DNA of 48,145 nt, filler included, from Leucoraja erinacea (lineage: Eukaryota): assembly GCF_028641065.1 (NCBI RefSeq). It is 2 parts of 2 records of this genome, joined end to end, with 100 filler letters (N's around TTAATTAATTAA, not from the genome) between each part and the next. Parts side by side here need not be neighbours in the genome. Positions count along the whole stretch, not along the records: positions 1 to 22,986 come from NW_026575948.1; 1 more part is not named here. The stretch is one strand, 5' to 3'. Position numbers and translations under genes: made by a program. How positions within the stretch are numbered: the first letter of the stretch is position 1; each line of letters starts with the position of its first letter. Of the stretch, positions 2,996-20,403 are shown piece by piece. The notes below the pieces were generated by a model. The model saw nothing but the letters and a program-made list of their open reading frames with translations. It had not been told where the DNA came from and did no database searches.

Positions 2996-3328
2996 GTGTG
3001 ACCGTGACATCTGTGCCGTGACCATTATATATTTCCCCTGTGAAAACACTCACTCGGCAGTAATACCTTCCTGTATCGATCATTTTGAGGTCAGTGATTT
3101 CGATGGATACTTTTAGAATTCCCTTTGAATTATTTGTCAGAACGCGACCATAATAGTCGCCGCTCGTGTTGGAAACGGCACGAGTTTCCACGTCTTTGTA
3201 CCAACTAATGGTCCTAATTAAACTGCTTGTGTCGCCAACAACTGCACAGTTTAGCCGCACAGTCCCGCCTTCAGTAACTGTGATCTGCTTCGGTGATTGT
3301 ATGATCGATTCATCGGATCCAACAGCAC
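2996..3328 (-). pseudogene. Ig V-set VJ-type exon V1 (NKp30/NCR3-like); open frame but splice acceptor mutated
   Basis: Translation AVGSDESIIQSPKQITVTEGGTVRLNC...WYKD...DTGRYYC...GHGTDVTVT has the canonical Cys/Trp/YxC and a J-like GxG. 333 nt, with a phase-1 donor C|GTAAGT (intron 2990-2995). The acceptor reads tttcAT where paralogs have tttcAG (position 3329). Confidence 0.85.
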
Positions 3329-3654
3329 ATGAAACCAGAAAGAATATTATAGTCTCGGCGCTGGCCTTTCGGCCCACCCCGTCAATGCCATCCATTACAC
3401 CTATCTACACAATCCCATTTACTCGCGTTAGGATCATGGCCTTTCTATGTCTCAGCGTTTCAAGTGCTTGGCGAGACGATTCTTAAATGTCGTGAGACAA
3501 CCCGGGCTCGATCCTGACCCCGGGTGCTGTCTGTCTGTGTGGAGTTTGCACGTTCTCCATTATATTGCCTGCGTTTCCCCTGGGCGTTCTTGCTTCCTCT
3601 CTCAACCCAAGGACGCGCGTCCTGACAGGCAATTAACATCCCTAAACAACTCCT

Positions 3655-4078
3655 AGCATCCATCCAGCCAACTGAGACAAAAGCACACTGGATAGCCACC
3701 AAGTGGTCACAGGAGTGGAAGGCAACCTCATCTCCATTACACAGCTCCATCTGTTCACCAGATAAAACCTGTCCAGGGTCTGACCTCCCCAGAGGAGCAT
3801 GGGTGAAGCTCAACAGACTTGGTACTGGAGTTGGGTGTTTCAATGCCAGCATGTGGAGATGGGGGCTCCGCCAGAGCCCAGCCTGTGAATGTGGAGCAGA
3901 ACAACAGGCAGCCAACCATGTCATCTCTGGGTGCCCGCTCTCCCACCCACCAAATGGAGCTGTGTCAGGGCCTGGCAGACATTGACGCCAAGAGACAACA
4001 ACCTGGCTGCTCAACACCCGGCTTGAGATCTAACTATTCCTTTAGTTTATTTATGTTTCATTCGCAAGAAGAAGAAGT
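3655..4078 (+). mobile_element. RTE-type LINE 3' fragment inserted in an old SINE
   Basis: LNRLGTGVGCFNASMWRWG...CECG...ANHVI C-terminal zinc-knuckle-like motif and (gaa)n tail; a partial paralogous copy lies at ~18280-18475. Confidence 0.6.
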
Positions 4079-4239
4079 ACAGCTGTAAATCATCCCTGGT
4101 TTATGGAGGAGTCGGAGTGACTGGAGCGTGAATGTGAATTTAGAGGGAACTGGTTTGCTGTTCGATGGGAAAAAATGGCTTCTTGCCTCGTTCTAGAAAT
4201 GGGGATTTCGCCCACAATGGACATTAATCACTTTGGTTT

Positions 4240-4539
4240 AGTTTAGTTTAGAGATACAGAGCGGATACAGGCCCTTCGGCCCACCGAGTCCGCTGCGATC
4301 AACGATCCCAGCAAAATAATGCTATTCTACACACACTAGGGACAATTTAATTTTTTACCGAGGCCAATTAGCCTACAAACCAGTACGTCTTTGGAGTGTG
4401 GGAGGAAAACGGAGCTCCCGGTGAAACCCCACGCAGGGGGAACGTAAACTCCGTACAGACAGAACCCGTAGTCAGGATCGAACCCGGGGTCCCTGGCGCT
4501 GTAAGGCAGCAACTCTACCGCCGCGCCACCGTGTTGCCC
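4240..4539 (-). mobile_element. HE1-like tRNA-derived V-SINE
   Basis: A box TGGCGCGGCGG, B box GGTTCGATCC, central V-domain and CR1-derived tail. Further copies at ~12800-13091, 31000-31500, 37500-37742, 44925-45065 and 46040-46150. Confidence 0.8.
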
Positions 4540-4976
4540 CTCTCTCCAGCTTTCCTGAACCCACTGTACTTTCCTTACAGTTCCTCCATCTTCCCCGCCA
4601 GGTTATGGTCATATGTTTGTTATTCCGATTTTGTGCTTCAACATTCATGGATGTTACAGCGTCGAAAGCGACCATGAAATCGGCACGGATTATATCAAAT
4701 GATGCACCGATTCTCTCTTCATCCCGTACACTGATGCACAGTCTCTAGCCCAGAGTAGGGGAATCGAGGACCAGAGGACACAGGTTCAAGGTGAAGGGGG
4801 AAAGATTCAGTAGGAATCCGATGGGTATTTTTTTCGCACAGAGGGCGCTCGATTTATGGAACAAGCTGCCAGAGGAGGTAGTTGAGGCTGGGACTATCCC
4901 ATCGTTTAAGAAGCAGTTGGACAGGTACATGGATAGGACAGGTTTGGAGGGATATGGACCAGGCGCTGGCAGTTGG

Positions 4977-5217
4977 GACTAGTGTAGATGGGACATTGTT
5001 GGCCGGTGTGGGCAAGTTGGGCCGAAGGGCCTGTTTCCACACTGTATCACTCTGTGACTAGTGTAGATGGGACATTGTTGGCCGGTGTGGGCAAGTTGGG
5101 CCGAAGGGCCTGTTTCCACACTGTATCACTCTGTGACTAGTGTAGATGGGACATTGTTGGCCGGTGTGGGCAAGTTGGGCCGAAGGGCCTGTTTCCACAC
5201 TGTATCACTCTGTGACT
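4977..5217 (+). repeat. Tandem triplication (~78-bp unit) of a LINE 3' UTR
   Basis: gactagtgtagatgggacattgttgg...tatcactctgt occurs three times. Confidence 0.9.
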
Positions 5218-5627
5218 GATCTTGCACATTGTAATTTAAAAAAGAGAAACATAGAAAAATAGGTGCAGAAGTAGGCCATTCGGCCCTTCCAGCCAGCACC
5301 GCCATTCAATATGATCATCTGAAATCAGTACCCCGTTCCTGCATTCTCCCCGTATCTCTTGATTCCGTTAGCCCTAAGAGCTAAATCTAACTCCCTCTTT
5401 AAAGCATCCACTGCCTTCTGTGGCAGAGAATTCCACAGATTCACAACTCTCTGGGTGAAAAGATGTTTCCTCGTCTCCGTTCTAAATGGCCTCCCCCTTA
5501 TTTTCAAACTGTGTCCCCTGGTTCCTAAATCTGATCTGACAACGTTTCGTTGTTGAGACGTGCGGTGGCCGGTGTTAAGGATGTTTTTGAGAACAGTAAA
5601 GACAAAGTTAAGATAACGCAAACTTAC

Positions 5628-18013: not shown

Positions 18014-18119
18014 TGCCCAATTGAACTGATTGTGTTGCTAACAAATGCACAGTTTAGCGGCACAGTCCCGCCTTCAGTAACTATGATCTGATTCGGTGAT
18101 TGTATGATCGATTCATCAA
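18014..18119 (-). pseudogene. Truncated V exon V4 (A-B strands only)
   Basis: Encodes DESIIQSPNQIIVTEGGTVPLNCAFVSNTISSIG, then joins directly to a CR1 3' fragment; the flanks match those of V1. Confidence 0.85.
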
Positions 18120-18854
18120 CTTGAAAACATATTATAGTCTCGGCGCTGGCCCCGGGTGCTGTCTGTCTATGTGGAGTTTGCACGTTCTCCATTATATTGC
18201 CTGCGTTTCCCCTGGGCGTTCTTGCTTCCTCTCTCAACCCAAGGACGCGCGTCCTGACAGGCAATTAACATCCCTAAACAACTCCTAGCATCCATCCAGC
18301 CAACGGAGACAAAAGCACACTGGATAGCCACCAAGTGGTCACAGGAGTGGAAGGCAACCTGATCTCCATTACACAGCTCCATCTGTTCACCAGATAAAAC
18401 CTGTCCAGGGTCTGACCTCCCCAGAGGAGCATGGGTGAAGCTCAACAGACTTGGTACTGGAGTTGGGCGCTTCAACTTCCTCTCCGCAGACTGAGAGTCT
18501 GGGGAGAGGAAGACTAGAGATATGGAAGGGTACAAAGAGCACGCGAGGTGTGAAAAAGACAGATCAAAGCAGAAGATGCTCAAGATGATGAATGGGTCTC
18601 CACCCGAAACGTCACCCATTCCTTCTCTCCAGAGATGCTGCCTGTCCCGCTGAGTTACTCCAGCTATCTTCGGTCTAAACCAGCATCTGGAGTTCCTCAC
18701 ATTTTCCCATCTCCACCCCTTTTTGCTTCCCTCCGCAGAGACCGTTCCCTCCTCAACTAACTGGTCAACTCATCCCTTCCCACCCAGACCACCCCTTCTC
18801 CAGGTACCTTCCCCAGCAACCGCAGGAGATGCAACACCGGTCCTCACCGGAGAA

Positions 18855-19576
18855 GACCTGGGTGTCATGGTACACCAGTCATTGAAAGTAGGCATGCAGG
18901 TACAGCAGGCAGTGAAGAAAGCGAATGGTATGTTAGCTTTCATAGCAAAAGGATTTGAGTATAGCAGCAGGTAGGTTCTACTGCAGTTGTACAAGGTCTT
19001 GGTGAGACCACACCTGGAGTATTGCGTACAGTTTTGGTCTCCCAATGTGAGGAAATACATTCTTGCCATGGAGGGAGTACAGAGAAGGTTCACCAGACTG
19101 ATTCCTGGGATGTCAGGACTTTCATATGAAGAAAGACTGGATAGACTCGGCTTGCACTCGCTAGAATTTAGAAGATTGAGGGGGGATCTTATAGAAACTT
19201 ACAAAATTCTTAAGGCGTTGGACAGGCTAGATGCAAGAAGATTGTTCCCGATGTTGTGGAAGTCAGAACAAGGGGTCACAGTTTAAGGATAAGGGGGAAA
19301 TCTTTTAGGACCGAGAAGAAGAAAACATTTTTCACACAGAGAGTGGTGAATCTGTGGAATTCTCTGCCACAGAAGGTAGTTGAGGCCAGTTCGTTGGCTA
19401 TATTTAAGAGGGAGTTAGATGTGGCCTTTGTGGCTAAAGGGATCAAGGGGTATGGAGAGAAGGCAGGTACAGGATACTGAGTTGGATGATCAGCCATGAT
19501 CATATTGAATGACGGTGCAGGCTCGAAGGGCCGAATGCCCTACTCCTGCACCTATTTTCTATGTTTCTATGTTTCT
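18855..19576 (+). mobile_element. CR1/HER1-type LINE 3' fragment
   Basis: [13 protein letters not shown]...RVVNLWNSLP and tttctatg tail. Confidence 0.9.
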
Positions 19577-19577
19577 A

Positions 19578-19965
19578 ATACCTCCTCCCTCAACTCTGTC
19601 CAGGGACCCCAACAGTCCTTTTAGGTGAGGCAGATGTTCACTTGCTGCTCCTCCAACCTCATCTACTGTATCCGTTGTTCCAGATGTGAACTCTAACACA
19701 TCGGCGAGACCAAACGCAGACTGGGCGATCGTTTCGCTAAACACCTTGTCTCAGACCGCCTGCACCAACCTGATCTCCCGGTTACTAAACACTTTAATTC
19801 TCCTTCCCATTCCCACACAGACCTTTCTGTCCTCGGTCTCCTGCATTGTCAGAGTGAGGCTAAATGCAAATTGGAGGAGCAGCATCTCATATTTGGTTTG
19901 GGCAGTTTACACCCCAGTGGTATGAATATTGATTTCTCTCACTTCAAGTAATTCCGGCATCCTCT
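19578..19965 (+). mobile_element. Penelope GIY-YIG fragment
   Basis: Degenerate copy of the 41190-41635 endonuclease region. Confidence 0.8.
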
Positions 19966-20049
19966 CCGACACACAAAGGCAAGTGGAGTCGGATTAAGAA
20001 TGTTTTTTTTAAGAACAGTAAAGATAAAGTTAAGGTTCTGCAAACTTAC

Positions 20050-20403
20050 TTGTGACCGTGACATCTGTGCTGTCCGCAAACGTACGTGTGATCGTGGCAT
20101 GTATGCCGTGACCATTATATATTCCCCCTGTGGTAACACTGACTCGGCAGTAATACCTTCCTGTATCGGTCATTTTGAGGTCAGTGATTTCGATGGATTC
20201 TTTTATAATTCCCGGTGAACGATATTGCAGAACGCGGCCATAATAGTCGCCGCTCGTGTTGGAAACGGCACGAGTTTCCACGTCTTTGTACCAATTAAAG
20301 GCCCCAATTAAACTGCTTGTGTAGCCAACAAATGTACAGTTTAGCCGCACAGTCCCGCCTTCAGTAACTGTGATCTGCTTCGATTCAGCGGATCCAACAG
20401 CAC
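20050..20403 (-). CDS. Ig V-set VJ-type exon V5 (NKp30/NCR3-like), open, with a 5-aa A-strand deletion and a duplicated J-like end
   Basis: 354 nt, open, phase 1-1; acceptor at 20404-20406, donor GTAAGT at 20044-20049, alternative donor GTACGT at 20080-20085. Encodes C...WYKD...YYC...GHGIHATITRTFADSTDVTVT. Confidence 0.8.

What the first reader, a model, noticed from the sequence alone, without database searches (positions are those of the whole stretch)
2996..20403. Hypervariability confined to BC, DE and FG loops around an invariant C-C' segment
Seen across V1/V2/V3/V5: BC loop VVGDTSSLIRTIS / FVGNPNIIVAFS / FVGDTGSSI.. / FVGYTSSLIGAFN, including indels. DE region LTNNSKG / RTSISPG / LKNNSQG / LQYRSPG. 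FG loop SVFTGEIYN / RVFTGEIYN / SVFTGETYH / SVTTGGIYN. WYKDVETRAVSNTSGDYYGRV is identical in all. Cys-Cys spacing is short (about 63), as in CDR2-reduced domains such as VNAR. Inference: diversifying selection on a CDR1/HV4/CDR3-type ligand surface, an antibody-like germline repertoire.
Basis: partly seen in the sequence, partly recalled or inferred. Interest (0 to 1): 0.75.

Follow-up and report, generated by a model that had tools for sequence, protein, structure and literature searches.

The report
Diversifying NKp30-like receptor exons in skate
This stretch of what is likely a skate genome holds duplicated genes for NKp30-like immune receptors whose copies differ mostly at one end of the domain, predicted to be the ligand-binding end and likely shaped by gene conversion plus selection; this is a familiar pattern for innate immune receptor families, not an antibody-like system.

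Summary
The quoted sequences are real. Four single-exon VJ-type Ig domains and one fragment lie on the minus strand in two duplicated gene units, with a leader exon and a Lys-bearing transmembrane exon. Relatives are batoid 'NCR3-like' proteins and nurse shark NCR3 (NKp30); they come in activating and ITIM-type forms. Clustering is significant: 18 of 25 substituted codons fall in the three patches (28 of 110 codons; corrected p 2/3000), and 17 of 28 new variant letters from other runs do too. A codon model gives omega 4.1-4.4 for the patches (2.8-2.9 with their own rate, p 0.03-0.04); the DE patch carries the signal, BC is equivocal, FG is not significant. Corrections: variation is not confined to loops (15 of 25 on predicted strand ends); the invariant segment is a C-to-D connection, no C' strand is predicted, and it is not more conserved than the rest of the framework (p 0.11); there are no recombination signals and FG length is fixed. 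The patches match the structural elements of the NKp30-B7H6 interface. Copies are mosaic. Verdict: new member of the elasmobranch NCR3 family with probable diversifying selection; not an antibody-like repertoire.

The parts
2996..3328 (-). V1: VJ-type Ig V exon, open frame, 110 codons; splice acceptor reads AT instead of AG in this assembly
   Evidence: five DNA runs read the AG letter at 3329 at full depth
5628..5957 (-). V2: intact V exon, 3-nt shorter BC region; only about 20 nt of its own upstream intron left before a repeat piece
6512..6840 (-). V3: V exon with a 4-nt deletion at the BC/C junction (frameshift in this assembly)
   Evidence: the deletion is not listed in five DNA runs
7538..7568 (-). 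Leader (signal peptide) exon of the left unit, start only; cut by the N gap at 7008-7537
   Evidence: (8 of 10 residues match P0004)
16309..16466 (-). Stalk + transmembrane + short tail exon with a Lys in the membrane segment, no Tyr motif; stop at 16311-16309
   Evidence: (75% to P0004)
18016..18117 (-). V4: fragment of a V exon (strand A to BC), no acceptor; positional counterpart of V1
20050..20403 (-). V5: open V exon with AG/GT sites, 15-nt deletion in strand A, 36-nt duplication of G strand and donor (second possible donor at 20085)
   Evidence: the duplication also stands in runs X3, X5, X10
3141..3203 (-). Invariant segment (V1 codons 42-62): lower strand C, C-D connection with an N-glycosylation sequon, start of strand D
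   Evidence: sequon in 44 of 63 family domains
3514..3843 (.). Collinear marker of the unit duplication (98% to 18146-18475); others: 5978-6107 = 19837-19966 (100%), 5-231 to 17563-17782 (96%)

Best explanation
These are duplicated, non-rearranging VJ-type exons of skate NCR3/NKp30-like receptor genes whose copies differ mostly at one end of the domain, predicted to be the ligand-binding end, likely because gene conversion shuffles short tracts between copies and selection likely keeps the changes that alter binding. Shown: two collinear units, [gap]-V5-V4 fragment-TM(Lys) and leader-V3-V2-V1-[beyond the window]; clustering of replacements; incompatible site patterns between copies; spliced-looking RNA reads. 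Inferred: the product is leader + V + Lys-bearing membrane segment with no signalling tail, so it would signal activation through an ITAM adaptor as NKp30 does; it would be the activating side of a paired family, since relatives in sawfish and Rhinoraja have ITIM-type partners; the variable BC-end/C-start, D-end/E-start and F-end/FG patches would form the ligand groove that binds B7H6 in human NKp30; the driver would be an arms race with pathogen ligands or decoys, or with a varying B7-family self ligand. The invariant C-D segment would sit at the opposite end and be ordinary framework with a conserved glycan site.
For: Family: closest relative 67% in Rhinoraja; batoid proteins named NCR3-like; nurse shark NCR3 QTT61904.1 shares the WQ..G[LV]KL membrane motif with the window's TM exon and falls in the same 25-row clade (SH-aLRT 92, quick tree); human NKp30 is among the PDB hits of the family profile (E 1.6e-9). 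Clustering. Selection: omega 4.1-4.4 with shared synonymous rate (p 2e-5 to 5e-5), 2.8-2.9 with own rate (p 0.03-0.04), framework 0.35-0.39; DE omega 9 or more (p 0.004 with own rate). V3 against V5: 14 replacement differences in about 58 loop sites, but 1 of 134 upstream and 0 of 82 downstream intron letters. Interface: Li 2011 (PMC3135353, passages and section 6) names loop BC, strand C start, helix alpha2 before strand E, strand F and loop FG, and says NKp30 lacks C'C''; the model likewise has no C'/C''; 7 of 11 contact-equivalent positions vary (p 0.003), omega 3.7-4.1. Mosaicism: informative sites support two incompatible trees, 8 and 3 sites, alternating inside the exon. Pairing: sawfish activating and ITIM-type V domains 100 of 108 identical. 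Expression: 11 reads in run X24, all on the exon.
Against: Only four copies; patches partly chosen after seeing the data. Count tests inside the patches are not significant (27 N: 4 S, p 0.11; pooled with other runs 41: 7, p 0.087). BC loses significance with its own rate (p 0.5-0.7) and FG never reaches it (p 0.18). Recombination can inflate omega; the runs test for conversion tracts is not significant (p 0.24). The contact mapping rests on residue patterns plus recalled numbering; shifted by one in the F/FG part it is 5 of 11 (p 0.07). In runs X7 and X10 one contig carries the whole 5' half with BC, so BC may not differ between copies there. Identity to nurse shark NCR3 is only 35 of 103; fold searches do not single out NKp30 (rank 50; not among the 50 shown). 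No ITIM exon lies in the window. No ligand or binding data; MHC linkage untested.
Confidence: 0.65

Rival explanations
1. Relaxed constraint plus patchy gene conversion, without positive selection: the framework is conserved and homogenised between copies, while surface patches keep older neutral divergence or take tracts from other paralogs; several copies are decaying pseudo-exons.
For: 3' intron divergence between units is 7-10 of 55 letters, near the V2 synonymous divergence (0.10-0.13); BC has a 3.5-fold raised rate with omega only 1.3-1.6; the same columns are the more variable ones family-wide (mean entropy 2.74 against 2.07, p 0.005); V3, V4 and V1 look broken here.
Against: DE has 10 replacement and 0 synonymous changes (omega above 1 with own rate, p 0.004); V3-V5 flanks are about identical while loops differ at 24% of replacement sites; the three lesions are not seen in five other DNA runs.
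Confidence: 0.22
2. An antibody-like germline repertoire: tandem V exons are alternative cassettes spliced one at a time to a shared leader and TM exon, giving cells different specificities against foreign antigen.
For: One leader precedes three V exons, all phase 1/1, so skipping keeps frame; a manta relative has annotated two-V and one-V isoforms; RNA reads carry mixed letters not matching one window copy.
Against: Few copies; no recombination signal; fixed FG length; tandem V exons in relatives are annotated as multi-domain chains of 2 to 5 V domains; no splice joint was seen (11 reads).
Confidence: 0.08
3. Assembly artefact: the copies and their differences come from mis-assembly of a repeat-rich, gapped region.
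For: N gaps beside V3 and V5; a 130-nt piece is 100% identical in both units; the V1 acceptor change, V3 4-nt deletion and V5 15-nt deletion are not listed in five DNA runs.
Against: 25 of 53 variant letters listed from other runs repeat window letters, and new ones fall in the same patches; the G-strand duplication recurs in other runs and in Rhinoraja.
Confidence: 0.05

Closest known systems
Elasmobranch NCR3/NKp30 family (nurse shark NCR3, QTT61904.1; batoid 'NCR3-like' gene models)
   Same: Single-exon VJ domain with YYC and GxG, V-x-N-x-S/T-x-x-Y/F-x-G-R segment, short Cys spacing, leader-V-TM layout, WQ..G[LV]KL Lys membrane motif, multi-copy, multi-V forms.
   Different: Very recent skate-specific duplicates (80-86% protein identity to V1), N-glycan sequon where sawfish and manta relatives have a CxxC, duplicated G strand/donor; 35 of 103 identical to the nurse shark domain.
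Human NKp30 (NCR3)
   Same: No C'C'' strands; charged residue in the membrane segment and no signalling tail (PMC6514059, passages); the variable patches match the B7H6-binding elements (PMC3135353).
   Different: Human receptor has Arg rather than Lys, a longer D-E region, and is a single gene (recalled); the ligand here is unknown.
Paired activating/inhibitory Ig receptors (CEACAM1/3, Xenopus CEACAMs, CD300A/C, LILRB3/A6)
   Same: Near-identical ligand domains on opposite tails, gene conversion, diversifying selection, decaying copies (PMC5112662, abstract; others seen in search listing).
   Different: Different Ig family; the inhibitory partner is seen in relatives, not in this window.
Shark VNAR (IgNAR variable domain)
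   Same: V domain with a reduced C'C'' region; VNARs are among the Foldseek hits (rank 4).
   Different: VNAR is assembled by V(D)J rearrangement with a long variable CDR3 and has constant domains (recalled); here V and J-like parts are one exon, no recombination signals, fixed FG length, direct join to a TM exon.

Membership tests
Elasmobranch NCR3/NKp30 family | Non-rearranging VJ domain in one exon (GxG in strand G) | tested here: met
   no RSS match in the window; NCR3 described as non-rearranging VJ in PMC12227049 (passages)
Elasmobranch NCR3/NKp30 family | Groups with named NCR3 sequences | tested here: met
   Quick tree: with batoid NCR3-like (95), shark NCR3-like (91), nurse shark NCR3 (92); careful tree not finished; most names are automatic
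Elasmobranch NCR3/NKp30 family | Charged membrane residue, short tail without Tyr motif (activating form) | tested here: met
   TM exon 16466-16309; same motif in nurse shark NCR3; its splicing to V5 is inferred
Elasmobranch NCR3/NKp30 family | Lack of C'C'' strands as in human NKp30 | tested here: met
   AlphaFold model, pLDDT 80, strands A A' B C D E F G; confidence is low (55) at residues 51-60, and helices alpha1/alpha2 were not predicted
Elasmobranch NCR3/NKp30 family | Fold closest to NKp30 among solved structures | tested here: inconclusive
   NKp30 at rank 50 among tied V-set hits; not in the 50 rows shown
Elasmobranch NCR3/NKp30 family | MHC linkage | not testable with these tools
   No whole genome held; neighbouring gene not identified
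Elasmobranch NCR3/NKp30 family | Binds B7H6 | not tested
   No skate B7H6 sequence in session
Paired receptor system | Activating and ITIM-type genes with near-identical ligand domains | tested here: inconclusive
   Met in sawfish (100 of 108) and suggested by adjacent Rhinoraja loci; no ITIM exon in this window
IgNAR / rearranging antigen receptors | Split V, D, J segments with recombination signals | tested here: not met
   One exon; no RSS found with 12, 22 or 23 spacers
IgNAR / rearranging antigen receptors | Length-variable CDR3 | tested here: not met
   Cys90-to-Gly102 distance the same in 4 of 4 copies
CD28 / CD28H family | PPP or EIP motif in the CDR3-like loop and Tyr motif in the tail | tested here: not met
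   Motifs from PMC11599192 (parts 1-3 of 6 read); absent from V1-V5 and from the TM exon

The most novel reading that the evidence does not exclude
Skates use NKp30-like genes as a germline diversity generator: tandem VJ exons serve both as alternatively spliced cassettes on one leader and one activating membrane exon and as donors for micro gene conversion, giving a fast-changing, selected repertoire at the B7H6-equivalent groove, a working non-rearranging forerunner-type receptor system in a jawed vertebrate.
Probability: 0.1. Interest if true: 0.72.

Novelty: new member of a known kind. Interest (0 to 1): 0.33.

Why it matters
NCR3 is one of the few non-rearranging VJ genes discussed as relatives of the antigen-receptor precursor. 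Evidence that skate copies diversify at the equivalent of the B7H6-binding groove, with activating and ITIM-type forms in batoids, makes a testable case that NKp30 in cartilaginous fish behaves like a paired receptor family in an arms race and not like the single conserved human receptor. It is a modest, specialist point: an expanded, divergent NCR3 family in sharks is already in print, and this pattern of variation is usual for innate receptor families.

Tried and rejected
VNAR/antibody-like reading: rejected (see membership tests). CD28/CD28H family: rejected on motifs. AID-type hotspots: 4 of 17 hotspot letters vary against 44 of 330 overall, too few to mean anything; CpG: 10 of 44 variable letters against 50 of 330. 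Single-sequence AlphaFold failed (pLDDT 44); the 9-row alignment gave 80. Fold searches gave tied V-set hits; NKp30 not listed is no evidence either way. A short C-to-E profile found nothing in the PDB, so no tool printed a residue alignment to human NKp30. 'Near' protein search with V2 found nothing. No RNA holder listed in the run index; single-cell runs X22 (0 reads) and X23 (4 intron reads under 90% alike) gave no test; no splice joint reached the listing threshold. Careful tree did not finish. The neighbouring gene (exon 27302-26751) had no Pfam match and the Atlas could not read it. Earlier-findings look-ups were empty. Kinlein 2021, Flajnik 2012, Ohta 2015 and Joyce 2011 were not held; I saw only their reference entries, so they may already report paired forms or selection. 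Nine paper searches showed no paper on selection in skate NCR3. No supplements were read.
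Full report
What is there. The window is repeat-rich vertebrate DNA with N gaps. On the minus strand lie four Ig V-set exons (Pfam V-set E 6e-13 to 6e-11 for V1, V2, V5) and one fragment: V1 3328-2996, V2 5957-5628, V3 6840-6512, V4 fragment 18117-18016, V5 20403-20050. Each holds V and J-like parts (YYC...GxGT) in one phase 1/1 exon. A leader start lies at 7568 and a stalk-membrane-tail exon at 16466-16309 with a Lys in the membrane segment. Collinear markers (100% over 130 nt, 98% over 330 nt, 96% over 227 nt) show two duplicated units: [gap]-V5-V4 fragment-TM and leader-V3-V2-V1-[TM predicted about 1.1 kb left of the window]. 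In this assembly V3 is frameshifted (4 nt missing), V1 has AT for AG at its acceptor, and V5 lacks 15 nt of strand A and has a 36-nt duplication of strand G with its donor. The first three changes are not listed in five DNA runs, so they are private to this haplotype or assembly errors; contigs drop rare variants, so this is not proof. The G-strand duplication recurs in runs X3, X5 and X10 and in the Rhinoraja protein.

Family. The closest protein is a Rhinoraja longicauda gene model (67%, leader-V-TM with Lys), so the source is likely a skate (inference). Further relatives are batoid and shark proteins, many named NCR3-like, and nurse shark NCR3 (QTT61904.1), which shares the WQ..G[LV]KL membrane motif with the window's TM exon. 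In a quick tree of 67 domains the window copies group with Rhinoraja (97), inside a batoid clade (95), with shark NCR3-like domains (91) and nurse shark NCR3 (92) (108 columns, careful search unfinished). The Atlas's first feature hit for the Narcine relative is an NCR3-like cluster (0.97). The family profile finds human NKp30 in the PDB at E 1.6e-9, below many antibody and TCR constructs. Relatives have either the Lys membrane segment or an uncharged one with ITIM-like Tyr motifs; in sawfish the two forms share 100 of 108 V residues. Several relatives carry 2 to 5 tandem V domains. PMC12227049 (passages) calls NCR3 a non-rearranging, MHC-linked VJ gene and lists eight nurse shark accessions; the title of Kinlein 2021 was seen only in a reference list.

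Checking the observation. All quoted stretches are right. Variant letters from other animals repeat the pattern: 17 of 28 new letters fall in the patches, 1 in codons 42-62, none in codons 1-27; 5 new replacements fall in codons 74-90, outside the patches, and one search left 32 rows unshown. The invariant 21-mer is not special against the framework rate (p 0.11). It holds an N-glycosylation sequon in 4 of 4 copies and in 44 of 63 family domains; human NKp30 has a glycan site at Asn68 (PMC12272517, passage), likely the equivalent (inference).

Structure. The model from a 9-row alignment (pLDDT 80, pTM 0.71) has strands A, A', B, C, D, E, F, G and no C' or C''; confidence is low at 51-60. Li 2011 (PMC3135353; passages and section 6) describes the same lack in NKp30 and places B7H6 on loop BC, the start of strand C, helix alpha2 before strand E, strand F and loop FG. 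The window's variable residues sit at 28-41, 63-73 and 93-101, that is on these elements; 15 of 25 are on strand ends. By Ig topology BC, DE and FG share one end of the sandwich and the C-D connection lies at the other (established knowledge; I had no coordinates to measure). Mapping the 11 NKp30 residues named in that paper's Table II by residue pattern through the sawfish relative, 7 of 11 vary (p 0.003); with the F/FG register shifted by one (the paper prints Cys107, I recall Cys108) it is 5 of 11 (p 0.07). Fold searches only confirm a V-set domain.

Selection. Over the whole exon pN is below pS for pairs with V2 and above it among V1, V3, V5. A codon model with fixed site classes gives omega 4.1-4.4 for the patches and 0.35-0.39 for the rest (p 2e-5 to 5e-5); letting the patches have their own rate gives 2.8-2.9 (p 0.03-0.04). 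DE stays significant (p 0.004), BC does not (p 0.5-0.7, rate 3.5-fold up), FG never is (p 0.18); the contact-equivalent sites give 3.7-4.1 (p 0.002-0.006). Plain counts inside the patches are not significant (p 0.11, pooled 0.087). V3 and V5 differ at 14 replacement sites in the patches while their flanks differ at 1 of 134 and 0 of 82 letters. Informative sites support two trees (8 and 3 sites) and alternate within the exon, as expected from conversion or parallel change; a runs test is not significant (p 0.24). So selection is probable, strongest at DE, and not proven with four recombining copies.

Expression. Bulk RNA run X24 (about 5 in 100 read) gave 11 reads, all on the exon and none in the flanking introns; 6 of 6 carry the letters for Pro68 and Glu73, which among window copies only V5 combines, but 3 of 5 carry Asn83, which V5 lacks. 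So V5-like relatives or alleles are transcribed. No splice joint was listed; tissue and cell type are unknown.

How it likely works. Leader, one or more V domains and the Lys membrane segment would make an activating receptor that pairs with an ITAM adaptor, as NCRs do (PMC6514059, passages). Duplication makes copies, conversion keeps framework and introns alike and moves short tracts between copies, and selection would keep those that change the ligand groove; broken copies accumulate. This is the pattern described for paired receptors such as Xenopus CEACAMs (PMC5112662, abstract). The ligand (B7H6, a pathogen protein or both) is unknown.

What it is not. Not a rearranging or VNAR-like gene: no recombination signal in the window, fixed FG length, Cys spacing within the family range 60-70. 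Not CD28/CD28H: no PPP or EIP motif (PMC11599192, parts 1-3 of 6 read). Other papers: PMC10751288 and PMC3964593, passages only.

Verdict. Observation largely real, with corrections; interpretation half right. New member of a known family; interest 0.33. The four primary papers on shark NKp30 and its structure that I could not open may already cover paired forms or selection.

Noticed in passing
window 27302-26751 (-), with possible last exons near 25010-24940 and 23451-23370: A 183-codon GC-rich exon with splice sites, of an unrelated upstream gene; no Pfam match; identity unknown. It would be the synteny marker for MHC linkage.
   Followed up: partly
window 20085 and 20049 (-): Two donors 36 nt apart at the end of V5 would give a short or a 12-residue longer stalk; the duplication recurs in other runs and in Rhinoraja, so it predates this haplotype.
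   Followed up: partly
P0006, P0007, P0008, P0011, P0013, P0026, P0028: Sawfish, manta, stingray and shark relatives have a CxxC in the C-D segment where skate and Narcine have an N-glycan sequon.
   Followed up: no
window about 8200-11430 (+): Decayed element inserted between the two units, with a gag-like Cys/His motif and a protease-like motif, resembling a BEL/Pao-type LTR retrotransposon (resemblance recalled, not tested); interrupted by a LINE.
   Followed up: no
window 20780-22986 (-): Reverse-transcriptase-like LINE piece directly beyond the N gap upstream of V5; no leader exon for V5 was found outside the gap.
   Followed up: no
window 16633-17019 and 26185-26620: 66-nt tandem repeat arrays, in the intron before the TM exon and near the upstream gene.
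   Followed up: no
P0014, P0015, P0027, P0037: Elasmobranch NCR3-like gene models with 2 to 5 tandem V domains carry misleading automatic names (pIgR-like, turtle-like, SIRP-like).
   Followed up: partly
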